A DNA stretch of 64,000 nt from assembly GCA_021786105.1 (NCBI GenBank), contig JAJYNW010000006.1:7012-71011 (forward strand), written 5' to 3'. Made by a program: the position numbers and the translations under genes. The notes under the pieces were generated by a model, which was not told where the DNA came from, searched no databases, and was given only the letters and a program-made list of their open reading frames with translations. The stretch is from a bacterium (GTDB lineage: Bacteria; Patescibacteriota; Microgenomatia; Daviesbacterales; UBA10151). Positions 15,133 to 38,941 of the stretch are shown here, one piece after another. Numbering within the stretch: position 1 is the first letter of the stretch; each line of letters starts with the position of its first letter.

Positions 15133-15548
15133 ATAATCAAATTACCAAGAAAACCCGAAGGTGTCAATACTGCAGTTTAAGGTCTGTGCCCGATGATGAG
15201 GTTGCTAAGAAGCAAATTGTTGGTGTTTTTCTTGGAAACTTTGGAAATATCCAGTTTTGGCTCATCAATGGGAGCTGTCCAAAGGGTAAATAAGGCACCG
15301 AAGATTGAATCCTCAAAGATTTGTTTAATTTTAGGACTAAGTTTGACCCTGCTCATCTGCTCTTACTCAGTTGAAGGGTAGGTCCAAGAAATTTTAGGCA
15401 GATATATATTTAAATTTTGATCTCCTGGTTATTCTTGGTAATCTCTGGCAGGAAATCCTATCAGGTATTTTCCTACCCTCAAACCTGAGCTTGAACGTAT
15501 TCTAAACTTTGAAAATAAGAAGAAGAATAAAATAATGTAATAATTATG

Positions 15549-16820: not shown

Positions 16821-17977
16821 ATTTTTGCTTTTGCTAATTGTACTTCTACCAAAGTTCCTTTGCCAGGATGTGATTTAATTTTAATTGAGCCTCGGTGTTT
16901 TTCAATAATACTTTTACACAAGAATAATCCCAGCCCCATTCCTTTAGAGGTGTCGTCCTCCTTTTTGTAGTAGCCTTCAAAGACCTTTGGTAAATCTTTT
17001 TTGCTAATTCCTTTACCCTGATCAATAACCCGCAAAACATAATTATGAGGTTTGGAGTCCAGGCGGATGGTGATCTGGGTATCCGGTGAGGAAAATTTAG
17101 CCGCATTCTCCAAAAGATTGTTAAGAACTTGTAATAGTTTGTCAAAATCCCCAATAATTTTATCATTTGGATTGTTAAGGAGATCTTCAAATATAATTTT
17201 TCTGTCCGGGTAGTTTAATTTAATTTTTTGAATTGCCATGTAGATAATTTCTTTCAAAGAACATTCCCTAAAAACGTACTGCAGTTCTCCTGACTTAATA
17301 CGCTCGATTTCCAAAAGTTCTTTAATTAAAAGAGTCAGATGATAACTTTCCGCATGCAGAAATTTAATCCATTTTGCTTCTGTGTTATTTCTTCCACTGC
17401 TTTTGGTATTTAGAAGCTGAGTGTAGCCAAAAATAGTGGCTACAGGGGTACGTAGCTCGTGTGCTGCCAAAGAAATAAACAAATCTCTGTTTTTCAAAGC
17501 TTTCCTTGTCTCATCATAAAGCTGCGTCTTTCTGATTGCCATAGAGGCCATGGAGGCAAACAGGCTTAAGATTTTTAGCTTATCATTATTAAAATGCTTC
17601 TCTTTACATGATAATACAGTTAAGACTCCAATAGACTTCTTGTGGTATGACAAAGGAATAATCATGGTAGATTTCATCCCTGCAGCTTCTAGCTGGGGAT
17701 GAATTTTAACCATCTTTTCTATTTTAGTGATTAAAGGTTTATGGCTTGTATAAGCTTGATATACAAAACCTTTTTTACGTTGTTTAAAAGAATATAAGAC
17801 AGCAGATGTAGCATATACTCTTTTAAGCTTTTTTCCTTGCTTTAAGAATATAGAAGCATCATCAGCCTGCACTAATTTTTTGGCCTCTTTGCCTACTATT
17901 GCATAAGTTTCCTCCGGGGTTAGCGGTTCCAGAAGCTTTAATCCTGATTTATAGATTTCCTCAAGAATATTTTCCAT
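16817..17977 (-). CDS. Sensor histidine kinase with GAF-like, HisKA and HATPase_c domains; paralog of 26..1201
   Basis: H-box 'AAHELRTPVATIFGYTQLL'; 'LLENAAKFSSPD'; 'DQGKGISKKDL'. Start chosen at 'MENILEEIYKSGL', which is homologous to 'MDNTLEAIYQSGL' of the other copy. Confidence 0.85.
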   Translation of the reverse strand: MENILEEIYKSGLKLLEPLTPEETYAIVGKEAKKLVQADDASIFLKQGKKLKRVYATSAVLYSFKQRKKGFVYQAYTSHKPLITKIEKMVKIHPQLEAAGMKSTMIIPLSYHKKSIGVLTVLSCKEKHFNNDKLKILSLFASMASMAIRKTQLYDETRKALKNRDLFISLAAHELRTPVATIFGYTQLLNTKSSGRNNTEAKWIKFLHAESYHLTLLIKELLEIERIKSGELQYVFRECSLKEIIYMAIQKIKLNYPDRKIIFEDLLNNPNDKIIGDFDKLLQVLNNLLENAAKFSSPDTQITIRLDSKPHNYVLRVIDQGKGISKKDLPKVFEGYYKKEDDTSKGMGLGLFLCKSIIEKHRGSIKIKSHPGKGTLVEVQLAKAKI

Positions 17978-18139
17978 GGAGTGCTCGCTGAAGGAATAAT
18001 AATAACAGGTCTTGAGGTTATTGCAATACAAAAACCTAATCTTCTTACATATTTCTTACTGAATTCTTATAGGATTTTGTAGTATCTCTCTTTATTGTTG
18101 TTTCATAAGGAACCTAGCCCAAGTGGTTAGGTTTTTATT

Positions 18140-18934
18140 ATGCCGGAAGGCGAACTAAGAGAATTACCAAAGTTAGGGATTGATTTTGATGGGACGATGG
18201 TGAATGTCATCGGTCCTTTTGTGCTTTGGTTGCGGTCAACTTATCCCAATAAGTTTACTAAAGCCCAGTATTTAAATAAAAATCCTGATGCCTCAGACCA
18301 GAAACAGCGTGATTACTCGGAGGTCAGGAGAGTTTTCATGACGGATCCTAAACGCATACCGGACCTGTCTTTTTACCGGGGAGTTTTGCAAGCTCTGCCG
18401 TTATTGAAGAGAGATTTCTCCGAAATCTATATCAATTCTTTAAGGTGGACGGACCCGGATCCCGAAAAAGACCAAGAATCTTCCATAAGAGGACTTTTAA
18501 GAGAGAATCATAGCTCTGAATATATCTCGGGAATTCTTTTAAGGAAAACCAGGGATGACAGAAAATGGGAGGTTAAGCTGGAGAATACACAAGAGTTCGG
18601 TATCAGCTATATGGTGGAAGATGATTCAAAGATAGCGCTGCGTCTTGCAAAATACCTGGAAGGAATTGTTTTGATTAGGAGACCCTGGAATAAACACGAA
18701 CCTAATAATCCGGGCTATGACCTTGCTAACCGCGAAAATTTAATAATATGCAGGGGGCTTTGGGATTTTGCGATGGGGGTTTATTTAGCCGGTTCTGTGG
18801 AAGAGTTTTTTGTAGAACATGCAGAAGGTTTAAAAGATCCCGTAAATCTTTATACTGTTTACCAGGCGCCGGTTCCCGCAGAAACGTGGATATCCCTCAC
18901 CGTATCCAGAGAGTTAGTTTCCTCATCTTCTTAG
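18140..18934 (+). CDS. Hypothetical protein with a possible HAD-like 'IDFDGTM' motif
   Basis: 'LGIDFDGTMVNVIG' resembles HAD motif I (DxDGT). The rest is unrecognised. Confidence 0.35.
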   Translation: MPEGELRELPKLGIDFDGTMVNVIGPFVLWLRSTYPNKFTKAQYLNKNPDASDQKQRDYSEVRRVFMTDPKRIPDLSFYRGVLQALPLLKRDFSEIYINSLRWTDPDPEKDQESSIRGLLRENHSSEYISGILLRKTRDDRKWEVKLENTQEFGISYMVEDDSKIALRLAKYLEGIVLIRRPWNKHEPNNPGYDLANRENLIICRGLWDFAMGVYLAGSVEEFFVEHAEGLKDPVNLYTVYQAPVPAETWISLTVSRELVSSSS

Positions 18935-18993: not shown

Positions 18994-19022
18994 TTGACAA
19001 GATCTAAAAAAGGGCTTATAAA
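18994..19022 (+). promoter_or_regulatory. Sigma-70-like promoter TTGACA-N17-TATAAA upstream of the first TasA/SipW locus
   Basis: ttgaca at 18994-18999 and tataaa at 19017-19022 with exact 17-nt spacing. Shares 'TTGACAAGA' with the element upstream of the second locus at 35008. Confidence 0.45.
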
Positions 19023-19104
19023 AGAAATTGTAAGGTTTTTTTGAATTTTTCCTGCCCCGATATCAATGAATTCTCAATCTTTAAATATTAATAATCAAAA
19101 TTAT

Positions 19105-19133
19105 TCAGACCAGCTGTTTAGAGCTGGTTTTTT
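19105..19133 (+). terminator. Terminator-like hairpin (ccagct-gtttag-agctgg + T6) inside the 5' leader of the TasA-like gene; possible attenuator
   Basis: 6-bp stem followed by TTTTTT, located between the candidate promoter and the RBS of 19177. Confidence 0.35.
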
Positions 19134-19176
19134 ATTGGAAAAAACATTTAAATTCTAGGGAAAGGGGGTGAAAAAA

Positions 19177-19767
19177 ATGGGAAAAATAATTTCAGGTTTA
19201 TTAGGTTTGGTAATGGTAGTGGCAGTAGTTTCCGGCACAGCTTATGCTGTATTTTCAGATCAAGTACAAGTAAGTGGTGTAACTTTGTCTACCGGTAATG
19301 CTGATTTACAAATTTGGGATGGAGATGGATGGCAAGAGAGTCTGTCATCAGCACTATTTACCGGTAACACTTACCCGGGTTGGCAGCAAGGTCAATATTT
19401 TGCTTTGCAAAATAATAGCGCTTCAAACATCGGATTGGATGTTACCGCTAGATTGACCAGTGCACCGTCCGGTAACTGGGGATTGCTCAGCCCGATAGTC
19501 CAGGTAGCAGTGGTTCAGTATGATAGTCAAGCTGCTGCATTGGCTGCTGTTGCCGCCAACAACCCCGGTCTTGGTGGAGTAGATGCTAGTACAGGATGGC
19601 AGACTTTAGCCGCATGGAATGCAAGTCCGATAGCTATTAGTACTAATTTGTTGAAGGGTGCACAGGGTGATTTTGTGATTTGGGGAAAGATTCCCTCAGA
19701 TGCAGGTAACTCTATTGCAAACCAGTCGCTTACGACTGATTGGGTGTTAATCGGTACTCAGCATTAA
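19177..19767 (+). CDS. TasA/camelysin-like secreted protein with a SipW-cognate-type signal peptide ('..SGTAYAVFSDQ')
   Basis: N-terminal TM followed by 'GTAYAVFSD' resembles the TasA/CalY signal region 'GGGTFAYFSD'. Encoded next to a SipW-type peptidase. RBS 'aaaggggg'. Confidence 0.65.
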   Translation: MGKIISGLLGLVMVVAVVSGTAYAVFSDQVQVSGVTLSTGNADLQIWDGDGWQESLSSALFTGNTYPGWQQGQYFALQNNSASNIGLDVTARLTSAPSGNWGLLSPIVQVAVVQYDSQAAALAAVAANNPGLGGVDASTGWQTLAAWNASPIAISTNLLKGAQGDFVIWGKIPSDAGNSIANQSLTTDWVLIGTQH

Positions 19768-19833
19768 TAAAGGTTTGAGTGCTTACTGATGGCATAAGGC
19801 AACTTGTGCTGTCAGATAAGGATTTAACTTTTT

Positions 19834-21861
19834 ATGAAGAAAACTTTAAAAAAGATTAATTTAGTATGGAAGAAAGTTGAAAAACCTGCAAAAATTGCCG
19901 GGAAGATTTTAGAGTGGGGAGTTTTTGCTGTTTTGGTTTTAATCTTTACCGTAGTGTTATCACCGCTTCTGCCGACTAAAAAATATGTTTCTACTTATAT
20001 TGTGTCTTCCGGTTCAATGGAGCCAACAATCAAAACCGGCTCAATCGCTTTTATTCAGCCGATAAAAGCAGATCAGGTTAAAGAAGGAGATATTGTTACT
20101 TTTACCCAACCAACAGATTCGACAAAAATTATCCTGCACCGGATTTTTAAAGCAGAAAACCAGAATGGAAATTTAAGTTTTCAAACCAAGGGTGACTATA
20201 ATAATGGCCCGGATATGTGGAACGTCCCTTCCACTTTAATGCAGGGGAAATATATTGCAGCCGTTCCTTATTTAGGGTATCCGGCCATGCTAATGAAAAC
20301 TCCAAAAGGTTTTGCTATAATAGTCGGCATTCCTGCCCTGCTCCTGCTCTTCCTGCAAATTAAAAAAATAAAGGAGGGTATTGAAGAAGAAGTCCAGAAA
20401 AGAACTGAGAGAGCTTTAAAGAAAGCAAAGCCTGTTAAAACTGACCTTTTAAGTATTTTGATGGCGGTAACCTTACTTTCTATACTTACTGGTTACAGCA
20501 GTATGAAATCAGTATCAGCTCTTTTTGTGTCTAAGGTAATGGTCAGCGGAGTTTCCATTTCCGTTAAGGATTTTGTGCCTCCGCCGGTCCCAGCCTTACT
20601 TTTGCCAGAGAATAATTCCAGCAGAAACACTAATGGGATGGTGATGGATTGGACTGATGTTTCTGATTATAAAGATATGCACAATCCGGTTTATTATATT
20701 TACCAAAGCGCTTACGATCCAGATTTTAAATCTGTTGCTTATACTTCCGCGCATCTTGCTGTTTCCCAAATTCCCGCTCCAGGAACTCCTAATGGAATTT
20801 ATTATTGGCATGTTAAGGCTTGCGACTCCATCGATAATTGTTCGGCCTGGTCAGATGCATGGAAGGTAACTGTGGACAATACTCCTGCACCTTCACTTAC
20901 CCCCACAGCTACACCAAGTGCTACCCCAACTCCAACACCTTCCCCCACACCATCCCCTTCTCCTAGCGTGGTTATCAATGAAGTGATGTGGATGGGGTCG
21001 ACTAAATCTGTGGCTGATGAATGGCTGGAGCTTCGTAATATGACTGATCATGAAATTGATCTTTCTAGCTGGCAAATTGAAAATGCAGTTTCCGGAGAGG
21101 GTGGCCATTTAGAAATTCCTGCACATAAAGTTATTCCGGCAAATGGATATTTCCTAATTTCCAACTACGAAGATGATGAGACTCATTCAGCTTTAAATGG
21201 GAGTTTACATATAGATTACCAGACAACAAGCATAAATTTTGAAAATGATTATAGGGAAAATGGGGCTTTGATTCTTAAAGACAAAGATAAAAATGTGATA
21301 GATTCAACCCCGGATCCAGTTTCTGGTAATTGGCCGGTGGGAAATGATGCTGGTTCAACCGGTTTGCATCAGTCCATGGAAAGAAATAATATTCCCGGAG
21401 ATGGGAGGTTGGTCAGTAGTTGGCATGCCTGCACTGATTCAGCTTGCCAAAGCACGGATTACTGGACTGTGAGTGGGGATAATTATGGAACTCCCAGGGC
21501 TTTAAATCATTCTGACAATGATCCAAGTACGACACCAACACCAACTCCTACTCCCACGCCCGCCCCAACACCAACTCCGACACCATCGACAACAATCAAT
21601 CCGGTTCCTGAATCGTCACCGTCAGCAAATTTAGGTTCCTCATCCGAGCCGGAACCTGAAGCATCTTTATCTCCGGCTCCTTCGTCTGCTCCTGAACCAA
21701 GCATGACACCGGTTCCTTCAGCGAGTCCGTCACCAACGCCGTCAGCAGAACCTGCCTCGAGTCCGGAGCCCTCTCCCACCCCTTCACCGTCACCTGTAAC
21801 TGGATCTGTTTCAACTCCGGAGCCATCGCCGTCTGCAACTCCTGCCCCCAAACGAAAATGA
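19834..21861 (+). CDS. SipW-type signal peptidase I (S26) fused to a lamin-tail domain (LTD) and Pro/Thr/Ser-rich low-complexity regions
   Basis: 'YIVSSGSMEPTIKTGSIAFIQP' is peptidase box B with the catalytic Ser, and 'ILHRIF' carries a His. LTD: 'VVINEVMWMGS..DEWLELRNMTDHEIDLSSWQIEN..IPANGYFLIS'. PT-rich linkers at 20884-20960 and 21520-21850. Confidence 0.7.
   Translation: MKKTLKKINLVWKKVEKPAKIAGKILEWGVFAVLVLIFTVVLSPLLPTKKYVSTYIVSSGSMEPTIKTGSIAFIQPIKADQVKEGDIVTFTQPTDSTKIILHRIFKAENQNGNLSFQTKGDYNNGPDMWNVPSTLMQGKYIAAVPYLGYPAMLMKTPKGFAIIVGIPALLLLFLQIKKIKEGIEEEVQKRTERALKKAKPVKTDLLSILMAVTLLSILTGYSSMKSVSALFVSKVMVSGVSISVKDFVPPPVPALLLPENNSSRNTNGMVMDWTDVSDYKDMHNPVYYIYQSAYDPDFKSVAYTSAHLAVSQIPAPGTPNGIYYWHVKACDSIDNCSAWSDAWKVTVDNTPAPSLTPTATPSATPTPTPSPTPSPSPSVVINEVMWMGSTKSVADEWLELRNMTDHEIDLSSWQIENAVSGEGGHLEIPAHKVIPANGYFLISNYEDDETHSALNGSLHIDYQTTSINFENDYRENGALILKDKDKNVIDSTPDPVSGNWPVGNDAGSTGLHQSMERNNIPGDGRLVSSWHACTDSACQSTDYWTVSGDNYGTPRALNHSDNDPSTTPTPTPTPTPAPTPTPTPSTTINPVPESSPSANLGSSSEPEPEASLSPAPSSAPEPSMTPVPSASPSPTPSAEPASSPEPSPTPSPSPVTGSVSTPEPSPSATPAPKRK
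21520..21850. repeat. Low-complexity coding repeat (TPTPTP / SPEPS) forming the C-terminal tail of 19834..21861
   Basis: Runs of ACn CCn codons. The minus-strand ORFs 21507..21851 and 21596..22039 are shadow ORFs of this repeat. Confidence 0.7.
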
Positions 21862-22976
21862 AAAAAATACTTAAAGTTTTAATATTGGTTTTGATAGGTT
21901 TTTCCTTTTTTCCGGCTTTGGCAAGGGCAGCAGACTTGAATATCGATTGCAATTCTTCTGACTGCACCAAAACCGGGCTGGAACCTATTTTCAGTACTGC
22001 TCTTGATGGAGTCTGGCATCCTGGAAGGATTATTACCAAGACGATTAATTTGAAAAATTCGGGAGCAGATACTAGTGAAATGGCTATTAAGGGAACAAGG
22101 GTGGGTGAGGCTGGTGCTTTAGAGCAAGTGATGAATGTCAGTTTGTCGGCGCCGGAAGGGCCGGTAATCTGGGCCGGCAGTTTGGCTGATTTTTATGCCC
22201 AGGACGTAATCAGGATGGGTGTTTTTGAGCCGGGTAAGGATTTGGATTATAACTTTACAGTCGGTATGGACTACGGGGCGGGTAACGATTACCAGAATTT
22301 GCAGGCAACTATGGATCTTTCCGTAGGTTTTTGGACTGAACCACCTTCCAGCCCCACTCCGTCTCCGGCCTCAACTTCCAACGGCAACGGGAGTAGAGAT
22401 GTATTGGGGGCAGGAGTCAGTGCTCCTTCTTGTAATGATGCCAAGCCGGCAACTCCTAATCTACTTTCAGCTGTAGTTACCGGTCCGAACCAGGTTACTT
22501 TAAACTGGTCTAAAGCTGATGGTAGTGTCAGCTATTACCTGGTGGCTTATGGGCTGGAATCCGGGAAGATGCTTTATGGCAATCCTAATGTGGGGGGTGC
22601 AGATACCACTTCTTATACGGTTAATGATTTATCCGGCGGAACAACTTATTATTTTAAAGTCAGGGCCGGTAACGGTTGCACCCCGGGAGAGCTTTCCAAC
22701 GAATTATCAGCCACCCCAGGAGGCCAGGCAGTAACCGGTACTCCGGCAGGCTTTTTGCCGGGTGTTTTAGGAGTGACAAACGAAGAAGCAGTGCCTTCGT
22801 CAGAGCCGGAGAGTTCCCAATCAGGTATTTTAGGTGCTGAAACATCACCAAAACCGAAAGAGGCTGTAATAGTGGGAGGTTTTATGGGTAAACTGGGTTG
22901 GTTTGTTTTAGGACCTGTGGCATTATTTGTTTTTCTTTTCGGACGCAAGCTTTTAGGTAAAAGATTTCCGTTTTAG
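21858..22976 (+). CDS. Secreted TasA-like domain protein with a fibronectin-III-like domain and a C-terminal TM anchor; paralog of 37028..37687
   Basis: Sec signal '..ALARAADL'. N-terminal domain aligns with 37028 ('AADLNIDCNSSDC..LKNSGADTSEMAIKG' vs 'AADLEISCSGSDK..LKNDSGADQVISVQG'). FN3-like 'VTLNWSKADGSVSYYLVAYG..TTYYFKVRAGN'. C-terminal TM 'WFVLGPVALFVFLFG'. Confidence 0.6.
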   Translation: MKKILKVLILVLIGFSFFPALARAADLNIDCNSSDCTKTGLEPIFSTALDGVWHPGRIITKTINLKNSGADTSEMAIKGTRVGEAGALEQVMNVSLSAPEGPVIWAGSLADFYAQDVIRMGVFEPGKDLDYNFTVGMDYGAGNDYQNLQATMDLSVGFWTEPPSSPTPSPASTSNGNGSRDVLGAGVSAPSCNDAKPATPNLLSAVVTGPNQVTLNWSKADGSVSYYLVAYGLESGKMLYGNPNVGGADTTSYTVNDLSGGTTYYFKVRAGNGCTPGELSNELSATPGGQAVTGTPAGFLPGVLGVTNEEAVPSSEPESSQSGILGAETSPKPKEAVIVGGFMGKLGWFVLGPVALFVFLFGRKLLGKRFPF

Positions 22977-23132: not shown

Positions 23133-25106
23133 ATGGCAAATTTCAAAATTATTTCCGATTTTAAGCCTACCGGCGATCAGCCGCAGGCAATAGACAAGCT
23201 GGCAACTGGCATTAATGCCGGAAAAGAAAACCAGGTTCTGTTAGGTGTAACCGGTTCCGGTAAAACCTTTTCCATGGCTAATGTTATTCAAAAAGTACAA
23301 AGGCCGACTTTAATTATTTCCCACAATAAAACTTTGGCCGGACAACTGGCCCAAGAATTTAGATCCATTTTTCCCAACAATGCCGTGGAATATTTTGTGT
23401 CTTATTACGATTATTATCAACCGGAGGCGTATATTCCCCAATCCGATACTTACATTGAGAAGGAAACGCAAATTAATGAGGAAATTGAAAAATTAAGGCT
23501 GTCAACTACTGCCTCTTTGTTGAGTCGCCGGGATGTCGTGGTGGTGGCCTCGGTTTCCTGCATCTATAACTTGGGTTCTCCCGTCGAATACGGCCAGGCG
23601 ATTTTGGAAATCGGCCGCGGTATGAAGGCCGGTATGCAGCAGGTAATGAAAATCCTGCAAAAGATGTATTATGACCGGAATGATATTGAGTTCAAGCGGG
23701 GTACTTACCGGGTCCGCGGTGATACTTTGGATATTTTTCCTTCTTATATGGATCAAGGTTACAGGTTACAGTTTTTAGGTGACAGAGTAGAAAAAATAAG
23801 CCAACTGGAAGTTGTAACAGGAAATACTACGGAAACACAAGGCACGCAGACTGTTTATCCAGCTAAGCATTACATTACTCCGGAGCAAAGGATTGTGCCC
23901 GGGATAAAACAAATTGAGATTGATTTGGAAAACCGGCTTAAGCAGCTAAAATCCAGCGGAAAGTTAGTGGAAGCGCAAAGGTTAGAACAAAGGACTCATT
24001 ATGATTTGGAAATGATCCGGCAGTTTGGTTATTGTAACGGAATTGAGAATTACTCGCGCTATTTTGACGGCCGGGAGCCGGGCGACGCACCATTTACCTT
24101 AATGGATTACTTTCCCAAGGATTTCCTGCTGATTGTTGATGAGTCACACATTACCATTCCGCAAATTAGGGGGATGTATAATGGAGACCGTTCCCGTAAA
24201 GAAACTTTGATTGATTTTGGTTTCCGGCTGCCGTCGGCTTTGGATAACCGGCCGCTTAAGTTCGACGAATTCCAACGAAGAATTAACCAGGTTGTTTATG
24301 TGTCCGCCACGCCGGATGAGTACGAATTGTCGTTGACTGGTCAAGACGGAGTGGTCGAGCAATTGGTCAGGCCCACCGGGATTTTGGATCCGGAAATTTC
24401 TGTGAGACCAATTCAGGGACAAATTGAGGATTTGATTGGGGAAATTAAAATCCGGGTGGAAAAGGGTGAGCGGACTTTGGTGACCACTTTAACCAAAAGG
24501 ACAGCAGAAGATTTAGCAGAATATATGCATGATAAAGGAATTAAAGTGCACTATCTTCATTCTGATGTGGCCACTTTGGAAAGAGGAGATATTTTGCAGT
24601 CGTTACGGCTGGGGGAGTATGACGTGATTGTGGGAATTAACCTTTTGCGGGAAGGATTGGATTTGCCGGAAGTTTCTTTGGTGGCTATTTTGGATGCGGA
24701 TAAGGAAGGATTTTTAAGATCGAGAACTTCTTTAATTCAGACCATGGGACGGGCTGCAAGGCATGTTAAAGGGCAGGTAATCATGTATGCGGATAATGTG
24801 ACCAAGTCCATGAAAGCAGCCATGGATGAGGTAGAAAGAAGAAGGAAATATCAGCAGGAATATAACAAAAAACATAACATTACCCCCAAAAGTATTGAAA
24901 AAGCTTTGCGGGAAAGATTGATTGAAAAAGTAGAGGAGTTGGAGGAAGAATTAGGTAAAAAAGATTTGACCATTGATGATATTCCGGTAAAAGAACGGAA
25001 AAAGATGCTGGAAAACCTGGAGGCTCAAATGAAGCAAGCAGCAGAAATTTTGGACTTTGAAGAAGCAGCCAGAATAAGGGATCAAATTAAAGAACTGACC
25101 ATCTAA
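23133..25106 (+). CDS. uvrB: Excinuclease ABC subunit B
   Basis: 'GVTGSGKTFSMANVIQKVQRPTLIISHNKTLAGQL', 'YYDYYQPEAYIPQSDTYIEKE', helicase motifs, C-terminal UVR domain. Confidence 0.95.
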   Translation: MANFKIISDFKPTGDQPQAIDKLATGINAGKENQVLLGVTGSGKTFSMANVIQKVQRPTLIISHNKTLAGQLAQEFRSIFPNNAVEYFVSYYDYYQPEAYIPQSDTYIEKETQINEEIEKLRLSTTASLLSRRDVVVVASVSCIYNLGSPVEYGQAILEIGRGMKAGMQQVMKILQKMYYDRNDIEFKRGTYRVRGDTLDIFPSYMDQGYRLQFLGDRVEKISQLEVVTGNTTETQGTQTVYPAKHYITPEQRIVPGIKQIEIDLENRLKQLKSSGKLVEAQRLEQRTHYDLEMIRQFGYCNGIENYSRYFDGREPGDAPFTLMDYFPKDFLLIVDESHITIPQIRGMYNGDRSRKETLIDFGFRLPSALDNRPLKFDEFQRRINQVVYVSATPDEYELSLTGQDGVVEQLVRPTGILDPEISVRPIQGQIEDLIGEIKIRVEKGERTLVTTLTKRTAEDLAEYMHDKGIKVHYLHSDVATLERGDILQSLRLGEYDVIVGINLLREGLDLPEVSLVAILDADKEGFLRSRTSLIQTMGRAARHVKGQVIMYADNVTKSMKAAMDEVERRRKYQQEYNKKHNITPKSIEKALRERLIEKVEELEEELGKKDLTIDDIPVKERKKMLENLEAQMKQAAEILDFEEAARIRDQIKELTI

Positions 25107-25181
25107 CCCCTTTAAAAGTCTTGCAAAATAGTTTAAAATAGGTGCTTACTTTTCGGGAAAAATTCGTCCCCAAAATTTTTT

Positions 25182-28121
25182 ATGGCTATAGATAAGATTA
25201 CTATTAAAGGTGCTCGTGAGCATAATTTAAAAAATATTGACTTGGAAATTCCTAAAAACAAGCTGGTGGTTTTGGTGGGCATTTCCGGTTCAGGTAAATC
25301 TTCTTTAGCTTTTGATACATTGTATGCGGAAGGCCAAAGGCGGTATGTGGAATCTTTATCTTCCTATGCCCGGCAATTTTTAGGCGTAATGGATAAGCCG
25401 GATGTGGATATGATTGAAGGCTTGTCTCCGGCCATTTCCATTGATCAAAAAGGCGTTTCTCACAACCCCCGTTCTACAGTTGGTACTACCACGGAGATCT
25501 ATGATTATATGAGGCTATTGTTTGCCCGGGTTGGTCACCCCCATTGTCCGGTTTGCGGCCGGGAAGTTTCCAAAATGTCAGTGGAACAGATTGCAGAAAA
25601 GGTGACGCAACTTCGTCATCCTGAACTCGTTTCAGGATCTGATAAAGAGATTCCGAAACAAGTTCGGAATGACAAAAGAGGTCGGAGGATAATGATTTTG
25701 GCTCCGGTGGTTAAAGACCGAAAAGGGGAATATAGCCAAATGTTTGAGGATTTTAGGAAAAAAGGATTTTCCAAAGTTAGGGTTGACGGGCAAGTCAGGG
25801 ATTTATCAGATGATTTTGTTTTGATTAAAACTAATAAACATACGATTGATTTGGTGATAGATCGGTTAGTTCTGGATACAAAAAGTGCACAAGATCAAAC
25901 TTTGTACTCAAGATTATCCCAAAGTATTGAAACAGCGCTCAAATTTGGTGAAGGAGCCGTGATTGTTTCTGATGTTTTGGATGCTGCTTTGGAATTCCCT
26001 CCAAATCCCAAGAAAATGGAAGATCATCTTTATTCAGAAAGGTTTGCTTGTCCGGTAGACAATATTTCTCTGCCGGAAATTGAACCAAGATTATTGTCTT
26101 TTAATTCTCCGCATGGCGCTTGCCCGAAATGTTTAGGCTTGGGAACGCTTTTAGAGATAGATGAAACCACTATTTTAAATCCGATTTTATCAATTGCTGA
26201 AGGCGGAATATTGCCCTGGTCAAAACTGGTTACCAACGACACCTGGTTTACCAGGCTGATTGAGGCGGTCGGAAAAAAATATGGCTTTGATGTGAATACC
26301 AGATTGGGAAATTTGACAGCTGAAGCCTGGCAAGTTTTGCTTCACGGGGCTCCAGACGAAGAATTTAAGGTGGAAGGCAGGAACAGGCAAGGCAAGTGGA
26401 CGCATTTTTACTCAGAATTTACCGGGCTGGTGATTTACCTAAAAGAAAGATACGAAACCTCGGAATCGGATTTTGTCAAAGCAGAAATTGAAAAGTACAT
26501 GGTGAAAGAAACCTGCCCGAAGTGTAAGGGCGCCAGGTTAAAAGATGAGGCTTTATCAATCACTATTAATGAATTAAATATTGCCGAGGTAACCAGTCAG
26601 TCGATCATTCAGACTTTGGAGTGGATAAAAACCATTAAACTCTCCGACAGGGAAGCTCAAATTGCCGCCCCGATTTTGAAAGAAATTATTTCCCGGCTGC
26701 AGTTTTTAGTTGATGTCGGTTTGGATTATTTAACTTTGGATCGGGCTGCCATGACTTTGGCAGGCGGTGAGTCGCAAAGGATTAGACTGGCTTCCCAAAT
26801 CGGGTCCGGGTTATCCGGAGTTTTATATGTTTTGGACGAACCGTCAATTGGTTTGCACCAGCGAGACAATTCAAGGCTGATTGAGACGTTAAAAAAACTC
26901 AAGAATCTGGGTAATACGGTGGTTGTTAATGAGCATGACGGAGAAACTATGGAAGCGGCTGATATGCTGATTGAGATTGGACCGGGAGCCGGAGAGCACG
27001 GAGGTAATATTGTTTTTGCTGGTACCCCGGATGAAATGAAAAAAAGTTCAGTTTCTTTGACCGGACAATATTTGTCAGGCAGGAAAAAAGTTGAAGTAGC
27101 AGATGATCTAAAACGAGCACCGGTGGAAATGGGTCATCTTAAAGTGCTGGGTGCAGCTGAGCATAATCTGAAAAATATTGATGTCTCTTTCCCTCTGGGG
27201 AAGTTCGTTACTGTGACTGGTGTATCCGGTTCCGGCAAGTCAACTTTGATTCACGATATTTTATATAAAGCTATGGCGCAAAAGATTTACCGGTCCCGGG
27301 AAAGGGCAGGTTTGCATAAGAGGATTGAGGGGACGGAATACATAGATAAGGTAGTTTTGGTAGATCAATCGCCAATTGGCCGGACTCCCCGTTCAAATCC
27401 AGCTACCTACACCGGAGCTTTTACCCACATCAGGGAATTATTTGCTCAATCTCCTGAGGCTAAAATCAGAGGCTATGGCCCGGGCCGGTTTTCTTTTAAT
27501 GTGAAAGGCGGCAGGTGTGAGGTTTGCGAGGGAGAAGGACAGCTGAAGATTGAAATGCAGTTTTTGCCGGATGTGTATGTGACTTGTGAGTCGTGTAACG
27601 GAGCCAGGTACAACCGGGAAGCTTTAGAGATTCGTTTTAAAGATAAAAATATCTCCGAGGTACTAAATATGACCGTGGAAGAGAGCCTGAGATTTTTTGA
27701 AAATATTCCTCAAATTAAAAATAAGCTGCAGGTGTTGTTTGATGTGGGCTTGGGCTACATTAAACTGGGTCAGCCGGCGCCCACTCTTTCCGGAGGTGAA
27801 GCCCAAAGGATTAAGCTTTCTTCGGAATTATCCAAAAGAGCAACCGGCCGAACTCTCTATATTCTGGATGAGCCCACTACAGGATTGCATTTTGCTGATA
27901 TTGAAAGGCTGTTGAATATTTTAAGGAAGCTGGTTAATTTTGGTAACACAGTGGTTATCATTGAACATAATCTGGATGTGATTAAAAATACAGATTGGAT
28001 AATAGATTTAGGGCCGGAAGGCGGGGATAAAGGCGGGCAAATTATTGCTGAAGGTACTCCGGCTCAGCTTTGTAAAATCAAGGATTCTTATACCGGCCAA
28101 TACCTGGCAAAGATGTTGTAA
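25182..28121 (+). CDS. uvrA: Excinuclease ABC subunit A
   Basis: Two ABC ATPase modules ('GISGSGKSSLAFDTLYAEGQRRYVESLS', 'GVSGSGKSTLIHD'), zinc-finger Cys clusters, 979 aa. Confidence 0.95.
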   Translation: MAIDKITIKGAREHNLKNIDLEIPKNKLVVLVGISGSGKSSLAFDTLYAEGQRRYVESLSSYARQFLGVMDKPDVDMIEGLSPAISIDQKGVSHNPRSTVGTTTEIYDYMRLLFARVGHPHCPVCGREVSKMSVEQIAEKVTQLRHPELVSGSDKEIPKQVRNDKRGRRIMILAPVVKDRKGEYSQMFEDFRKKGFSKVRVDGQVRDLSDDFVLIKTNKHTIDLVIDRLVLDTKSAQDQTLYSRLSQSIETALKFGEGAVIVSDVLDAALEFPPNPKKMEDHLYSERFACPVDNISLPEIEPRLLSFNSPHGACPKCLGLGTLLEIDETTILNPILSIAEGGILPWSKLVTNDTWFTRLIEAVGKKYGFDVNTRLGNLTAEAWQVLLHGAPDEEFKVEGRNRQGKWTHFYSEFTGLVIYLKERYETSESDFVKAEIEKYMVKETCPKCKGARLKDEALSITINELNIAEVTSQSIIQTLEWIKTIKLSDREAQIAAPILKEIISRLQFLVDVGLDYLTLDRAAMTLAGGESQRIRLASQIGSGLSGVLYVLDEPSIGLHQRDNSRLIETLKKLKNLGNTVVVNEHDGETMEAADMLIEIGPGAGEHGGNIVFAGTPDEMKKSSVSLTGQYLSGRKKVEVADDLKRAPVEMGHLKVLGAAEHNLKNIDVSFPLGKFVTVTGVSGSGKSTLIHDILYKAMAQKIYRSRERAGLHKRIEGTEYIDKVVLVDQSPIGRTPRSNPATYTGAFTHIRELFAQSPEAKIRGYGPGRFSFNVKGGRCEVCEGEGQLKIEMQFLPDVYVTCESCNGARYNREALEIRFKDKNISEVLNMTVEESLRFFENIPQIKNKLQVLFDVGLGYIKLGQPAPTLSGGEAQRIKLSSELSKRATGRTLYILDEPTTGLHFADIERLLNILRKLVNFGNTVVIIEHNLDVIKNTDWIIDLGPEGGDKGGQIIAEGTPAQLCKIKDSYTGQYLAKML

Positions 28122-35147: not shown

Positions 35148-35705
35148 ATGAGAAGAATTCTTTTAGCCACTGTAATCGCCACTGCTTCTCTTTCGGTAGC
35201 TGTGATGACAACTTGGGCTGCCTGGACTTCGTCTGTAACAGTCAGTAATAACGTTATTACTACAGGCAGTGTTAGCTTGCAAGTTTCTCTTACTGGTAAC
35301 AGTAATGATTATGGATCATCTGTATCCTCAAGCACAGCGATATCCGGTTTAATGCCTACCAATACAAGCAGTAAAGGTACGACATTCTATGTAAAAAACA
35401 ACAGCTCAACCGGGGTTAATTTTAACCTGGGAGCTGTAGGATCAGCTGTTATTTCTGGGAGTCCTGCACCTGCCGATTTAACCAGTCTGCAGATATCAAT
35501 TGTCCCGAGTGGAAGCTCAGCTTCAACAATTGATGCTAACTATCATACATTGTCTGCATGGGGATCCAGTCAGACTTTGGGTACTTTGAGTTCAGGAGCA
35601 AGCCAACCATATGATATATATGCCAAGCTTGCTACCACCGCAGCCGATGATTGGCAAGGAAGACAAGTAACCTTTGCCGTTACGGTTACCGGTTCACAGA
35701 TCTAG
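35148..35705 (+). CDS. TasA-like secreted protein with a SipW-cognate-type signal ('..TTWAAWTSS')
   Basis: AGGAGGTG RBS. N-terminal TM followed by 'TWAAWTSSVTVSNNVITTG'. Composition resembles 19177 ('VKNNSSTGVNFNLGAVG'). Confidence 0.55.
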   Translation: MRRILLATVIATASLSVAVMTTWAAWTSSVTVSNNVITTGSVSLQVSLTGNSNDYGSSVSSSTAISGLMPTNTSSKGTTFYVKNNSSTGVNFNLGAVGSAVISGSPAPADLTSLQISIVPSGSSASTIDANYHTLSAWGSSQTLGTLSSGASQPYDIYAKLATTAADDWQGRQVTFAVTVTGSQI

Positions 35706-35775
35706 AATTTTTCTAGTCTTTTTGGGAGTCAAAGGGACGCCTTTGGCTCCTTGTAAAGGTTAGAAGTTTAATTAT

Positions 35776-36330
35776 ATGAAGTTGATTTGGCCAAAACATA
35801 CAATTTTGTTTACTTTTAAAGTATTAATTTTTTGCCTGGCGGTTTTTATGGCCATATTGTCAGCGTTGGTGTATTTGCCTTTGAAAACACCGCTTAAAAT
35901 GTTTGTAGTTTTATCCGGCAGTATGAACCCGGTAATTCCGGCCGGTTCGATTGTAATGGTTGAGCGTGAGCCGGTCTCGATTCAAAAGGGAGAGGTGATC
36001 ACTTTTATCCATCCAAATAAACCACTGGAGTTTGTTACCCACAGAGTTATTAATGTTGAGAGTCAAGGAAATACAGCTGTTTATCAAACAAAGGGAGATG
36101 CTAATAATATTCCGGATCAGTGGGTGGTAAAAAAAGAGGCTGTTTGGGGTAAAGCCACTTTTGTGGTGCCATTTTTGGGTTATCTAATCAACTTTGCCAA
36201 AACTAAGTTGGGGGTAGTGTTGATAATAGCGTTACCGCTGTTTTTAATAGCTGCCAGCGAAATGACAGTAATTGTTAAAGAAATTAAACGCCTTAGGCAG
36301 GCAAAGATTAAACTGCCGCAACTGGACTAA
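35776..36330 (+). CDS. SipW-type signal peptidase I (standalone, 184 aa)
   Basis: 'VVLSGSMNPVIPAGSIVMV' is box B with the catalytic Ser. 'VTHRVI' carries a His. N- and C-terminal TM helices. Confidence 0.8.
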   Translation: MKLIWPKHTILFTFKVLIFCLAVFMAILSALVYLPLKTPLKMFVVLSGSMNPVIPAGSIVMVEREPVSIQKGEVITFIHPNKPLEFVTHRVINVESQGNTAVYQTKGDANNIPDQWVVKKEAVWGKATFVVPFLGYLINFAKTKLGVVLIIALPLFLIAASEMTVIVKEIKRLRQAKIKLPQLD

Positions 36331-37031
36331 TGAAAAAAAATAAATCCTTATTTTTAGCAATAATTTTGATTTTGAGTTTTAACGTGCTGATGCTGGTGCC
36401 AACTACCCGGGCGCTTTTTACAGACAGTATCCAAGTGACAAATAACAATATTTCTACCGGCACCTGGCCGGCACCTACGCCAACCCCAACCGCAACTCCG
36501 GCTCCCACACCAACACCTACCCCGGCACCAACTGCTACACCAACCCCTGCTCCTACTGCCACTCCGGCACCGACGACGACTCCTAACCCGAATGCGGTTG
36601 ATACCAGAATTGATCCTGCTACTGCCACTGCTTCAGCTAGTCAGAACTTTACTGTTAATTTAGTAGTCAGTAACGCCCAAGATACGGGAGGATTCCAGAC
36701 AACTATTTCTTATGACCCAAACAAAGTAACTTTTGTCAGCGCAGCTTTGGGTCCATTCCTTACCAGTACCGGTAGAGCTCTTTATGGGACATTTGGGCCA
36801 ATGGTAGATTCTACAGCCGGGACTGTAACCTATGGAGCTAATACCCTCGGCCTTGCTCCGCTTGGACCTAATGGTGAAGGAACTATTGCCAGCTTTACCT
36901 TTACAACTAAATCAGTCGGCCAAAGCAGCTTGAATATTACTGATATGGAGGTTGACCGCCGTTTAGATACAGGTTCGGGTTCAATCCAGCCTAACGGCCA
37001 AATAACAGGAGGAACCGTCACTGCCCAGTGA
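36330..37031 (+). CDS. Secreted cohesin-like domain protein with a SipW-cognate signal ('..TTRALFTDS') and a PT-rich linker
   Basis: 'TRALFTDSIQVTNNNISTG' signal-type motif. PT linker 36470-36600. Cohesin-like 'QNFTVNLVVSNAQDTGGFQTTISYDPNKVTFVSAALGPF'. Confidence 0.55.
   Translation: MKKNKSLFLAIILILSFNVLMLVPTTRALFTDSIQVTNNNISTGTWPAPTPTPTATPAPTPTPTPAPTATPTPAPTATPAPTTTPNPNAVDTRIDPATATASASQNFTVNLVVSNAQDTGGFQTTISYDPNKVTFVSAALGPFLTSTGRALYGTFGPMVDSTAGTVTYGANTLGLAPLGPNGEGTIASFTFTTKSVGQSSLNITDMEVDRRLDTGSGSIQPNGQITGGTVTAQ
36470..36600. repeat. PT-linker coding repeat (PAPTPTPTATPAPTPTPTPAPTATPTPAPTATP)
   Basis: The minus-strand ORF 36308..36628 (GVGVAVGAGV...) is its shadow. Confidence 0.7.
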
Positions 37032-37687
37032 AACTTACTTTGAAGTTATTCGTTATAACTATAATGCTGGTTTTTACTCCTTTGCTACTAACAGGCTTAG
37101 TCAAAGCCGCGGATTTGGAAATTAGTTGTTCCGGTTCAGACAAAGATTGTTCAAAATCAACTGATGCTTCCTTGTTTAGCGCAACTGACGGGTTGTGGTT
37201 TCCCGGAAAAACTGTTTCCAAAATTATCTCTTTAAAAAATGACAGCGGGGCAGATCAAGTAATATCCGTCCAGGGGATCCGAAGAGGCAGAAGAGACGGC
37301 TTGGGGAATGTGTTATACCTGACTTTTGCCAACAACCAAACCAGTCAGATTGTTTGGCAGGGCACTTTAACCAGGCTTGATGCTAATAAATTAATTAATC
37401 TGGGTAGTCTTGCAGCTGGGGATAGCCTGGAAGTAAAGACGTCTTTAGGGATGTTAAAAACTGCCTCTGCTGACTTCGAAAACCAAAAAACTACCTTTGA
37501 TCTGACTTTTAATTTCCGAAGTGACAGCGAAAAAAATAACAAGACTGAAGAGAGAAAGAATGAGGGCCGGGTTTTGGGGCAATCAACTGAGGCGACCCCA
37601 GAGTCTTCCTGGATTTCAAAAATATTTACAGCCATTCATGGATTTTTCTCAAGAATTTTCAGTGTCTTTAATGTCTTTGCCCGGTGA
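37028..37687 (+). CDS. Secreted TasA-like domain protein; paralog of the N-terminal domain of 21858..22976
   Basis: Sec signal '..LVKAADL'. Motif-by-motif alignment with 21858 ('DGLWFPGKTVSKIISLKNDSGADQVISVQG'). Confidence 0.55.
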   Translation: MKLTLKLFVITIMLVFTPLLLTGLVKAADLEISCSGSDKDCSKSTDASLFSATDGLWFPGKTVSKIISLKNDSGADQVISVQGIRRGRRDGLGNVLYLTFANNQTSQIVWQGTLTRLDANKLINLGSLAAGDSLEVKTSLGMLKTASADFENQKTTFDLTFNFRSDSEKNNKTEERKNEGRVLGQSTEATPESSWISKIFTAIHGFFSRIFSVFNVFAR

Positions 37688-37735
37688 CAGCCTGAATTGA
37701 CATATGCAAGTTACCTATAGTAAACTTTAGAACTT

Positions 37736-38941
37736 ATGTCTATAGAATCTAAATTAAATAAGATAGAAAAACTTCTCCCGGTTAGTCGCAAGGGTGGAAT
37801 AAATATAGTTGGTGGAGTATTAATTACTGGTACGGCCTTGTTGATTGCTGCAAATCCGGATGCTGCAGCAGCATTTTTTGCTAAATTGAGTTCCCCGAGT
37901 GCAGTTTCCAGTATTCCTGCCGTTCCTACCCCAGGATTAGGAGCAATGACTGTTTACCAGGTTGAAAATGCCAACCCCACCAATCTTCTTGTTACATCAA
38001 TTATTACGGATACTGTGAGCTTTAAAACAGTCATAACTAATACTATTCCTGCATGCAGTACTTCCCAGATCCATCTTAGAGATATTAATCAAGTTTCCAG
38101 TCCTTTTAACGGAGCAATGACTGTTAGCGCGGATCAACCCATGAATGCAAGAATTGTCGGTTATGATTATCCGCCCGGGGTTGTGGTTACTACGACAATA
38201 AATCAGCAAGTACAAGCGGTAGATTTTAACGGAGACGGAAAAATAACCAATGCGGATATCCAACCTCCAGCTACCCGTTGGGGAATTGACGAATGTAATA
38301 CTGCTTATGCTTCGCAATATGATATCAGAAACGCAAATGGTGAAAAATATCCTGACGGCAAAATGAAAACTGGAGATATCCAAGCAGTATCCACCATGTG
38401 GGGTATGACCTACACCCTGCCCATCACTAATACGGCTCAGGCAGCGGCTTTAAAGCGGCCTTTGGCAATGGCGCCACAAGTGGATTTAAAACTTCAACCG
38501 TCAGATATTACTGTTTTGCCTGGAGGGACTTTCACCGTTAGCATTGAAGCGGATAATGTGACTGATCTGGCTGGATTTGAGGCTACACTGAAATATGACC
38601 CTGCGAAATTACAAATGACGGGTACTCTGTTAGGTAAGACAAGCCGACCCATGAAGCAACTAAGCCGTCCAACAGAAGACGGCAACGGTATTGTGGTAGA
38701 AGGTCATAGTCAGGGGATGCTTCCGGCGGGAGATAATGGCAATGTTGTTTTGGAAACCTTTTCTTTTAAGGCAGGAGGAGCGGGTAGTATTGATTTAACA
38801 CTGAGCGGTGCAGAAGTAAACTCACGCCTTAATGGCGGAATGGGTATTAGGTCTATAACTAATGCCAAGGTTTTAATTTCTGACCTTTTGCACAGGCTCT
38901 ATTTGCCTGGGGTATTCCGCTTATCGCCCTCGAAGCCTTAA
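37736..38941 (+). CDS. Cell-surface protein with a dockerin-like Ca-binding repeat and a cohesin-like domain
   Basis: 'VDFNGDGKITNADIQ' is a dockerin-type repeat. 'FTVSIEADNVTDLAGFEATLKYDPAKLQM' is a cohesin-like signature. N-terminal TM. Confidence 0.5.
   Translation: MSIESKLNKIEKLLPVSRKGGINIVGGVLITGTALLIAANPDAAAAFFAKLSSPSAVSSIPAVPTPGLGAMTVYQVENANPTNLLVTSIITDTVSFKTVITNTIPACSTSQIHLRDINQVSSPFNGAMTVSADQPMNARIVGYDYPPGVVVTTTINQQVQAVDFNGDGKITNADIQPPATRWGIDECNTAYASQYDIRNANGEKYPDGKMKTGDIQAVSTMWGMTYTLPITNTAQAAALKRPLAMAPQVDLKLQPSDITVLPGGTFTVSIEADNVTDLAGFEATLKYDPAKLQMTGTLLGKTSRPMKQLSRPTEDGNGIVVEGHSQGMLPAGDNGNVVLETFSFKAGGAGSIDLTLSGAEVNSRLNGGMGIRSITNAKVLISDLLHRLYLPGVFRLSPSKP

What the first reader, a model, noticed from the sequence alone, without database searches (positions are those of the whole stretch)
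19105..22976. Locus 1 of a duplicated SipW-peptidase / TasA-like fibre module
Three consecutive genes encode a TasA/camelysin-like protein with a SipW-cognate signal (GTAYAVFSD), a SipW-type signal peptidase I, and a second TasA-like protein with FN3 and TM anchor. They are preceded by a sigma-70-like promoter and a leader hairpin. In Bacillus, SipW plus TasA build extracellular fibres; archaeal bundling pili are TasA-like. A comparable operon in a CPR-like genome suggests a dedicated surface-fibre or attachment system that, to my knowledge, has not been characterised in this lineage.
Basis: partly seen in the sequence, partly recalled or inferred. Interest (0 to 1): 0.75.

Follow-up and report, generated by a model that had tools for sequence, protein, structure and literature searches.

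The report
TasA-type fibre operon with peptidase–tip fusion
A tiny uncultured (CPR/Patescibacteria) bacterium carries a conserved three-gene set that most likely builds a TasA-like surface fibre. Unusually, the dedicated signal peptidase is fused to the protein predicted to start and tip the fibre, and a third, membrane-anchored subunit lacks the linking strand and probably holds the fibre on the cell.

Summary
Bases 19177-22976 hold three co-directional genes in a Patescibacteria MAG.

- **B675:** residues 1-190 are an archaeal/ER-type (SipW/Sec11) signal peptidase (TIGR02228, 114.6 bits).
- **C372:** its N-terminal domain is homologous to A199 (hhalign 97.6%), followed by FN3 and a C-terminal membrane anchor.

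- **Fusion:** B675 is the peptidase fused in frame, through a third membrane helix, to a substrate-like protein. That part has a SipW-type cleavage site and a donor-strand-like segment, followed by an Ig-like domain, a lamin-tail domain and a Pro/Thr-rich tail. It resembles TapA in logic.
- **No donor strand:** C372 lacks the donor strand.
- **Hairpin:** a covarying hairpin between genes A and B buries the B ribosome-binding site.

The A / fusion / C triad recurs in at least five other distinct metagenomic lineages. Two more loci hold the A gene and the fusion only.

My model, inferred and untested, is a polar fibre: cleaved tip, then A polymer, then membrane-anchored cap. TasA homologues in Patescibacteria were already noted in 2022, so this is a new variant of a known kind.

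The parts
18994..19022 (+). Sigma-70-like promoter, TTGACA-17 nt-TATAAA
   Evidence: Read from the sequence. The scan tool omits it only because it requires T at position 6 of the -10 hexamer. A TTGACA -35 hexamer lies upstream of the A gene in 9 of 11 related leaders.
19107..19138 (+). Terminator-like leader hairpin (9-bp stem, 6-nt loop) followed by a T run, between the promoter and the ribosome-binding site
   Evidence: dG -13.3 kcal/mol, z -3.3. Comparable GC-containing hairpins with a T run sit 40-85 nt upstream of the A start codon in L005, L006, L057, L061 and L063. No Rfam match. A role in attenuation is inferred.
19177..19767 (+). Gene A (196 aa), predicted major fibre subunit. Signal peptide is residues 1-24 (...GTAYA|VF). 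The donor-strand segment VFSDQVQVSGVTLSTG is residues 25-40. The TasA-like jellyroll is residues 41-196.
   Evidence: In the model, residues 1-39 are unstructured (pLDDT <50) and the rest is a confident beta-sandwich. Profile alignment places TLSTGNADL on TasA residues 37-46.
19767..19835 (+). Conserved intercistronic RNA hairpin between gene A and gene B. Its 3' arm contains the AAGGA Shine-Dalgarno sequence of gene B (19819-19823).
   Evidence: dG -30.1 kcal/mol, z -8.0, 0 of 200 shuffles as stable. Every one of 10 related loci has such a hairpin. On 8 sequences, 20 pairs are predicted and 15 carry compensatory changes. 88.8% of cells are paired, against 75% in shuffles (0/500) and about 35% in slid controls. 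No Rfam match.
19834..20403 (+). Gene B, residues 1-190: SipW/archaeal/ER-type signal peptidase I, with TM1 at 28-46 and TM2 at 158-176
   Evidence: TIGR02228 114.6 bits; NF046067 104 bits (below its equivalog cut-off of 190); SEC11C/A are the best PDB sequences.
20404..20574 (+). Gene B, residues 191-247: charged cytoplasmic linker, third hydrophobic segment (201-219), predicted SipW-type cleavage site SVSA229|LF, and donor-strand-like segment LFVSKVMVSGVSISVKDF
   Evidence: blastp similarity to the A199 N-terminus. This is the fourth-best hit of the signal+donor HMM in the six-frame window, E 0.019. It is conserved in all fused orthologues. The segment tracks the donor strand of the cognate A gene; 1 of 20,000 permutations reached the cognate score.
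20575..21861 (+). Gene B, residues 248-675: PPP hinge, Ig-like domain (about 250-350), Pro/Thr linker, lamin-tail domain (373-491), further region and long Pro/Thr/Ser-rich tail. This is the predicted tip or adhesin part.
   Evidence: LTD PF00932 50.5 bits. Orthologues carry Big_13, fn3 and LTD in varying numbers.
21858..22976 (+). Gene C (372 aa). It has an ordinary AxA signal (1-24) and a TasA-like jellyroll without a donor strand (25-~160, conserved Cys31/Cys36). VLG motifs follow. It ends with fn3 (200-285), a TM segment (342-360) and a basic tail. Predicted membrane-anchored fibre base or cap.
   Evidence: The A-family HMM matches only from position 43 on.
35148..38941 (+). Paralogous locus 2. 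It comprises A185, the stand-alone SipW B184, tip-like C233 (SipW signal + donor-like segment + Pro/Thr linker + cohesin), D219 (a homologue of the C372 jellyroll) and E401 (TM + dockerin-like + cohesin).
   Evidence: The B184 stop and the C233 start overlap (TAATG).

Best explanation
The locus is an operon for a TasA-type surface fibre, assembled by donor-strand exchange, in a CPR bacterium.

**Shown**
- Gene A encodes a small secreted jellyroll protein of the TasA superfamily. Its SipW-type signal is followed directly by a segment equivalent to the TasA donor strand.
- Gene B starts with a Ser-His, SipW/Sec11-type signal peptidase.
- The same reading frame continues through a third membrane helix into a second SipW-type cleavage motif, then a donor-strand-like segment, then Ig-like and lamin-tail domains and a Pro/Thr-rich tail.
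- Gene C encodes a homologue of the A jellyroll. It begins exactly after the donor-strand position and ends in FN3, a membrane helix and a basic tail.
- The triad A / peptidase-fusion / C, and a covarying hairpin between A and B, are conserved in several divergent lineages.

**Inferred**
- The peptidase cuts its own C-terminal passenger, in cis or in trans, at SVSA|LF. The freed passenger has a strand but no groove. It acts like TapA by inserting its N-terminal strand into the first A subunit, and so becomes the distal tip or adhesin.
- Each A subunit is held at the membrane by its signal peptide until SipW frees its donor strand, which then enters the next subunit.
- C has a groove but no strand. 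It accepts the last strand, stops growth and ties the fibre to the membrane.
- The leader terminator-like hairpin and the A-B hairpin, which hides the gene B Shine-Dalgarno sequence, keep A in excess over B and C.
For: **TasA relationship of A**
- The family profile hits AbpX and TasA first among PDB sequences.
- 50 of 147 family representatives match PF12389.

**Donor strand**
- A199 residues 25-34 fall where TasA residues 28-36 lie. TasA 28-38 is the donor strand, and TapA has a similar N-terminus that nucleates fibres (PMC9674648; PMC10151520).

**Peptidase type:**

**Fusion**
- Three hydrophobic segments are present in every fused orthologue, against two in the stand-alone B184.
- The xxA|xF...VSGVxxS motif is conserved.
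- The same 675-aa ORF appears in four assemblies.
- Fused orthologues at 38-56% identity occur in L007, L008, L009, L057, L058, L061 and L063.
- In locus 2 the same two parts are separate genes that overlap by one base.
- Tip and cognate A donor segments co-vary (63/126 identities; 1 of 20,000 permutations as high).

**Gene C**
- hhalign 97.6% with a 17-column gap at the donor segment.
- The HMM match starts at position 43 or later in C372, D219 and all five orthologues.
- Foldseek hits 5OF1 (probability 0.99) and 7UEG (probability 0.96).

**RNA elements:**
Against: - No experiment and no multimer model was available. Cleavage of the fusion, fibre formation and polarity are all inferences.
- A199 itself is below the Pfam and TIGRFAM cut-offs.
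- Foldseek E-values are weak (1e-3 to 2e-2).
- The C372 model is only moderately confident in the N-terminal domain (pLDDT 65-87) and poor elsewhere.
- The internal signal/donor motif of B675 alone scores only E 0.019. Those of L009 and L063 are not significant by HMM.
- The conserved Cys-x4-Cys hairpin at the C372 N-terminus could permanently fill its own groove. In that case C would not join a fibre.
- L007 lacks a recognisable C-type gene next to the fusion.
Confidence: 0.6

Rival explanations
1. This is a plain Bacillus-style matrix system. SipW processes secreted TasA-like proteins that form loose extracellular fibres. The C-terminal part of B675 is never cleaved and is simply an adhesin displayed on the peptidase. 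C372 is an independent surface protein, not a fibre base.
For: The same TasA and SipW homology applies. Cleavage of the fusion is not shown. The Cys-stapled N-terminus of C372 could self-complement its groove.
Against: A SipW-type -3/-1 cleavage motif and a donor-like segment are conserved exactly after TM3 in all fused orthologues. That segment co-varies with the cognate A donor strand. The C-type gene is strictly linked and translationally coupled to the fusion in 6 loci.
Confidence: 0.22
2. These are not fibres at all. A and C are monomeric jellyroll surface proteins, camelysin-like proteases or cell-envelope coat proteins, and they merely use a dedicated signal peptidase.
Against: The top structural matches are specifically donor-strand filaments. 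A conserved unstructured N-terminal segment equivalent to the TasA donor strand is present. A199 has no HExxH motif; its only histidine is the last residue. Strand-only and groove-only partners make sense only for strand exchange.
Confidence: 0.12
3. A-family proteins are precursors of ribosomally synthesised peptides with a SipW-like leader, as one JGI annotation says.
For: The JGI name for P0018 is 'predicted ribosomally synthesized peptide with SipW-like signal peptide'.
Against: The protein is a 150-residue, confidently folded beta-sandwich. The loci contain no modification enzymes.
Confidence: 0.02

Closest known systems
Bacillus subtilis tapA-sipW-tasA operon (TasA fibres; Bohning 2022 PMC9674648, Roske 2023 PMC10151520)
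   Same: It has a dedicated SipW-type peptidase. Its major jellyroll subunit carries a donor strand that begins at the cleavage site. An accessory protein with a similar N-terminal strand but a different fold starts the fibre. The accessory gene and the peptidase gene are tightly coupled.
   Different: The gene order is A - peptidase - accessory. The accessory protein is fused to the peptidase and has no sequence similarity to TapA (Ig-like and lamin-tail domains instead). There is an extra, strand-less, membrane-anchored TasA-like subunit. Sequence identity to TasA is only about 15%.
Clostridium perfringens sipW-bsaABCRSD (BsaA polymers; PMC7395162, PMC11580942)
   Same: sipW is followed by several secreted TasA-like or accessory proteins in one operon.
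   Different: That operon has no peptidase fusion and no reported anchored strand-less subunit. BsaA uses intermolecular isopeptide bonds, and the operon carries its own two-component system.
Archaeal bundling pili AbpA/AbpB and related TasA-like archaeal filaments (Wang 2022 PMC9245690; CanA/CanX, AbpX)
   Same: They share the TasA-superfamily jellyroll with donor-strand complementation. AbpB is proposed to be the strand-donating initiator with distal adhesin-like domains.
   Different: No dedicated peptidase gene is present in the archaeal ABP operon. Here the peptidase is not only present but fused to the initiator.
Chaperone-usher pili (Fim/Pap), analogy only
   Same: Both are polar, tip-first fibres built by donor-strand exchange. 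A special terminal subunit (PapH-like) ends growth and anchors the fibre. A hairpin after the major-subunit gene sets stoichiometry.
   Different: The proteins and machinery are unrelated, with no chaperone or usher here. The polarity of the incomplete subunits is reversed: the tip has only a strand and the base has only a groove.

Membership tests
TasA/camelysin superfamily (Pfam PF12389 Peptidase_M73) | HMM match above the gathering threshold | tested here: not met
   A199 scores 14.5 bits against a cut-off of 22.5, and only residues 6-50 match. However, 50 of 147 representatives of its family hit PF12389 at E<=0.01, and the homologues P0003, P0019 and P0020 carry a precomputed PF12389 hit.
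TasA/camelysin superfamily (Pfam PF12389 Peptidase_M73) | Jellyroll fold closest to TasA | tested here: met
TasA/camelysin superfamily (Pfam PF12389 Peptidase_M73) | N-terminal donor strand starting at the SipW cleavage site | tested here: met
   For A199, the profile alignment to TasA places residues 25-34 at TasA 28-36, and the segment is unstructured in the monomer model. C372 does NOT meet this feature: the HMM match starts at position 43.
TasA/camelysin superfamily (Pfam PF12389 Peptidase_M73) | Polymerises into fibres by donor-strand exchange | not testable with these tools
   This needs a multimer prediction (structure jobs were exhausted) or experiment.
SipW-dependent signal peptide (TIGR04088 cognate_SipW) | HMM match above the cut-off (19 bits) | tested here: inconclusive
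   A199 scores 16.3 bits, just below the cut-off. Its paralogue A185 scores 22.2 bits, above it. A family-specific HMM gives A199 E 2e-27.
Archaeal/ER/SipW-type signal peptidase I (TIGR02228) | HMM match above the cut-off, and a Ser-His rather than Ser-Lys catalytic pattern | tested here: met
   114.6 bits against 51.85. The LepB model TIGR02227 scores 37.6 bits, below its cut-off of 47. Alignment to SEC11A/C shows SGSMEP, HR and KGDxN.
Bacillus SipW equivalog (NF046067) | Score above the equivalog cut-off (190 bits), about 190 aa, two membrane segments | tested here: not met
   104.3 bits. The protein is 675 aa with three membrane segments and a passenger. It is a SipW-type enzyme, not a SipW orthologue.
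TapA/YqxM | Sequence homology to TapA | tested here: not met
   No TapA/YqxM family appears among the NCBIfam or Pfam hits of B675. The passenger has LTD and Ig-like domains instead.
TapA/YqxM | SipW-type signal followed by a segment resembling the major subunit's donor strand, on a protein without the TasA fold | tested here: met
   This supports 'works like TapA', not membership of the family.

The most novel reading that the evidence does not exclude
A signal peptidase is fused to, and releases, its own substrate. That substrate is the strand-donating tip or initiator of a donor-strand-exchange pilus. A strand-less, membrane-anchored TasA-like subunit then caps and anchors the fibre. Together they would make a complete, self-contained, tip-to-base polar pilus machine of three genes. 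It would need no chaperone, usher, sortase or ATPase, and may be used by CPR epibionts to attach to hosts or surfaces.
Probability: 0.4. Interest if true: 0.78.

Novelty: new variant of a known kind. Interest (0 to 1): 0.6.

Why it matters
CPR/Patescibacteria are thought to live attached to other cells. Their known surface appendages are mostly type IV pili, and the way they attach is a central open question.

This locus gives a concrete, testable candidate for a second kind of appendage: a minimal three-gene TasA-type fibre with modular adhesin-like tips (lamin-tail domain here, cohesin in the paralogous locus).

For the TasA field, it offers natural 'dissected' subunits, one with a strand only and one with a groove only. 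It also offers a peptidase-initiator fusion. Both bear directly on how signal-peptide cleavage is coupled to donor-strand exchange, and on how such fibres are started, ended and anchored. These points are still unclear even in Bacillus.

Tried and rejected
- **phmmer of A199 against PDB sequences:** no hit at E<=10, so fold and profile methods were needed.
- **C372 against PDB sequences:** only FN3 hits.
- **Word-based homologue search with A199 alone:** it found 3 proteins. The alignment query found 23 and the exhaustive HMM search found 1492 representatives.
- **Genome-collection scan with the fusion alignment:** the patterns fell in the catalytic core. It returned mostly ordinary SipW genes from Bacilli, Clostridia, Actinomycetota and archaea, and only one more fusion, L009. 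The longer clostridial SipWs have charged cytoplasmic tails, not substrate fusions.
- **Rfam:** no match for the leader or for the A-B spacer.
- **Whole-leader fold:** not more stable than shuffles (z -0.12). Only the terminator-like hairpin stands out.
- **CTGCCCCRA motif shared by both leaders:** not enriched in the window (8 found, 7.8 expected).
- **Small leader ORF across the hairpin:** it lacks a Shine-Dalgarno sequence, so I discarded it.
- **Sortase in the window:** none by tblastn.
- **RiPP-precursor annotation:** rejected (see rival explanations).
- **Antisense ORFs in the Pro/Thr-rich part of B675:** 21507-21851 and 21596-22039 on the minus strand are composition artefacts.


Full report
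**1. What is there**

The window comes from a MAG that NCBI labels 'Patescibacteria group bacterium' (locus tags M1142_). The same gene set, with a 675-aa middle ORF, appears in four assemblies: two NCBI MAGs and two Logan assemblies of separate sequencing runs.

Three + strand genes fill 19177-22976:
- A: 196 aa from the ATG at 19177. The GTG at 19168 lies inside the Shine-Dalgarno sequence.
- B: 675 aa, 19834-21861.
- C: 372 aa, 21858-22976. It overlaps the stop codon of B by ATGA.

Upstream lie TTGACA-17-TATAAA (18994-19022) and a terminator-like hairpin at 19107-19130 followed by a T run. A second, paralogous locus lies at 35148-38941.

**2. Gene A is a TasA-superfamily subunit**

A199 alone is just under the curated thresholds: TIGR04088 16.3 bits against 19, and PF12389 14.5 bits against 22.5.

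Its family is large. A profile search found 1492 cluster representatives at E<=1e-3. Of the best 147, 50 match PF12389 at E<=0.01.

The family profile finds AbpX and TasA as the best PDB sequences (E 0.016). It aligns A-family 'TLSTGNADL' with TasA residues 37-46. The ten residues after the predicted cleavage site (GTAYA|VFSDQVQVSG) therefore occupy the place of TasA 28-36. TasA 28-38 is the donor strand, and deleting it abolishes fibres (PMC9674648).

A199 has no HExxH motif, so a protease role is unlikely.

**3. Gene B is a SipW-type peptidase fused to a TapA-like substrate**

Residues 1-190 match TIGR02228 (114.6 bits, cut-off 51.85) and the Bacillus SipW model (104 bits, below its equivalog cut-off). 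The LepB-type model stays below threshold. The best solved relatives are SEC11A/C, with SGSMEP, HR and KGDxN aligned.

The reading frame then continues. After TM2 come a charged linker and a third hydrophobic segment (201-219). Next comes '...SVSA229|LFVSKVMVSGVSISVKDF'. This resembles the signal and donor region of A199 (blastp). It is the fourth-best hit of a signal+donor HMM in a six-frame scan of the window, after A199, A185 and C233 (E 0.019; next best 0.23).

Downstream are a PPP hinge, an Ig-like domain, a Pro/Thr linker, a lamin-tail domain (50.5 bits) and a long Pro/Thr/Ser-rich tail.

The topology is consistent. The N-terminus is basic and cytoplasmic, the catalytic domain is outside, the linker is inside, and TM3 carries the passenger out to the side where the active site lies.

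**4. The fusion is conserved, not an assembly error**

Fused orthologues (38-56% identity) have the same three hydrophobic segments and the same xxA|xF...(V/A)S(G)xxxS motif. They occur in L007, L008 (identical to L060), L009, L057, L058 (same as L059), L061 and L063. Each lies directly after an A-family gene.

Their passengers differ in length (425 to 1171 aa) and in domain content (Big_13, fn3, LTD), as expected for adhesin-like tips.

In locus 2 the two parts are separate genes in the same order. SipW B184 is followed, with a one-base TAATG overlap, by C233, which has a SipW-type signal, a donor-like segment, a Pro/Thr linker and a cohesin domain. This is the logic of TapA. TapA carries an N-terminus like the TasA donor strand, nucleates fibres, and its gene is tightly coupled to sipW.

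The first 14 residues of each predicted mature tip are on average 50% identical to the donor segment of the A gene in the same locus. That sum of cognate identities was reached by 1 of 20,000 random re-pairings. In 6 of 9 loci no foreign A is more similar than the cognate one. This is what one expects if both strands must fit the same groove.

**5. Gene C is a strand-less, anchored TasA-like subunit**

The N-terminal domain of C372 and its locus-2 paralogue D219 (32% identity) is homologous to the A family. hhalign gives 97.6% (E 2.7e-12) with a 17-column gap at the donor segment. The A-family HMM matches C372 (E 9e-8) and D219 (E 7e-9) only from position 43 on.

The AlphaFold model is moderate in this domain and poor elsewhere. 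Its most probable Foldseek matches are TasA 5OF1 (probability 0.99) and AbpA 7UEG (probability 0.96).

C372 has an ordinary AxA signal (ALARA|ADL), a conserved Cys-x4-Cys pair, an fn3 domain, a C-terminal membrane helix and a basic tail.

C-type genes with the same features follow the fusion gene in L008, L057, L058, L061 and L063.

**6. RNA elements**

The 66-nt spacer between A and B folds into a long hairpin (dG -30.1 kcal/mol, z -8.0). Its 3' arm holds the gene B Shine-Dalgarno sequence.

All ten related loci have such a hairpin. On eight type-1 sequences, 15 of 20 pairs show compensatory changes. 88.8% of cells pair, against 75% in shuffles (0/500) and about 35% in slid controls. Rfam has no such family.

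It recurs, with different stem sequences, in five other leaders between a TTGACA promoter and the ribosome-binding site. In L005 the upstream gene is on the other strand, so there the hairpin cannot be that gene's terminator.

I infer that both elements keep the major subunit in excess and make expression conditional.

**7. Mechanism (inferred)**

The proposed sequence is:
1. Sec export of all three proteins.
2. The peptidase releases its own passenger at A229|L230.
3. The passenger's free N-terminal strand fills the groove of the first A subunit and becomes the distal tip.
4. Each newly exported A subunit is cut by SipW. This frees its strand, which enters the next subunit, so growth occurs at the membrane.
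5. C accepts the last strand. It cannot donate one, and it anchors the fibre.

Every strand and every groove is used in this scheme.

The main uncertainty is whether the Cys-stapled N-terminus of C occupies its own groove. I put about 0.75 on 'TasA-type fibre system' and about 0.4-0.45 on the full polar model.

**8. Novelty**

Wang et al. 2022 already listed Patescibacteria among the phyla with PF12389 homologues. NCBI already names A185 a SipW-dependent-signal protein. Literature searches found no study of such a system in CPR, and no description of a peptidase-substrate fusion or a strand-less anchored subunit.

I therefore rate it a new variant of a known kind.

Noticed in passing
window 22401-22409, 22764-22772, 22824-22832 (C372 residues 182-184, 303-305, 323-325); D219 (window 37028-37687); P0026, P0028; L057:16-1932: A conserved (V/I)LG(E/Q/A)x(T/S) motif lies 15-40 residues before a C-terminal hydrophobic segment and basic tail in all C-type proteins. 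It also occurs in an unrelated 638-aa surface protein next to a sortase gene in L057 (PF04203, 86.5 bits). It may be a CPR-specific sorting or processing signal. No sortase is encoded in this window.
   Followed up: partly
window 36330-37031 (C233) and 37736-38941 (E401): In locus 2 the predicted tip carries a cohesin domain. The last gene encodes an N-terminally membrane-anchored protein with a dockerin-like EF-hand segment and a cohesin. This hints at cohesin-dockerin docking on or between fibres.
   Followed up: partly
L008:8496-9494, L057:6880-8127, L058:3137-4084, L063:3095-4096, P0027: Many C-type proteins end in a multi-spanning hydrophobic module that starts with a conserved 'C-x-N-x-W-W-W-x-L' motif, instead of the FN3 + single helix of C372. 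No family was assigned; there was only a sub-threshold Acyl_transf_3 hit.
   Followed up: no
window 19051-19060 and 35082-35091; L005 leader: Both A-gene leaders share (C/T)CTGCCCC(G/A)A, and L005 has CTGCCCCAAA. The motif is not enriched in the window as a whole (8 found, 7.8 expected), so it may be chance.
   Followed up: yes
L009 (CAYTIP010000022.1): A contig labelled 'uncultured Gammaproteobacteria bacterium' carries the CPR-type A gene and the SipW-tip fusion next to the ribosomal protein genes L11, L1, L10 and L7/L12. The bin label is probably wrong, or the contig was mis-binned.
   Followed up: no
window 21507-21851 (-) and 21596-22039 (-); 36308-36628 (-): Long antisense ORFs lie opposite the Pro/Thr-rich linkers and translate to Gly/Val/Ala repeats. 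They are composition artefacts, not genes.
   Followed up: yes
window 14515-18934 and 23133-28121: The flanking genes are LexA, a 423-aa protein and a 264-aa protein without any family match, and a GAF-HisKA sensor kinase upstream, with UvrB and UvrA downstream. None of these is conserved next to the module in other lineages.
   Followed up: partly
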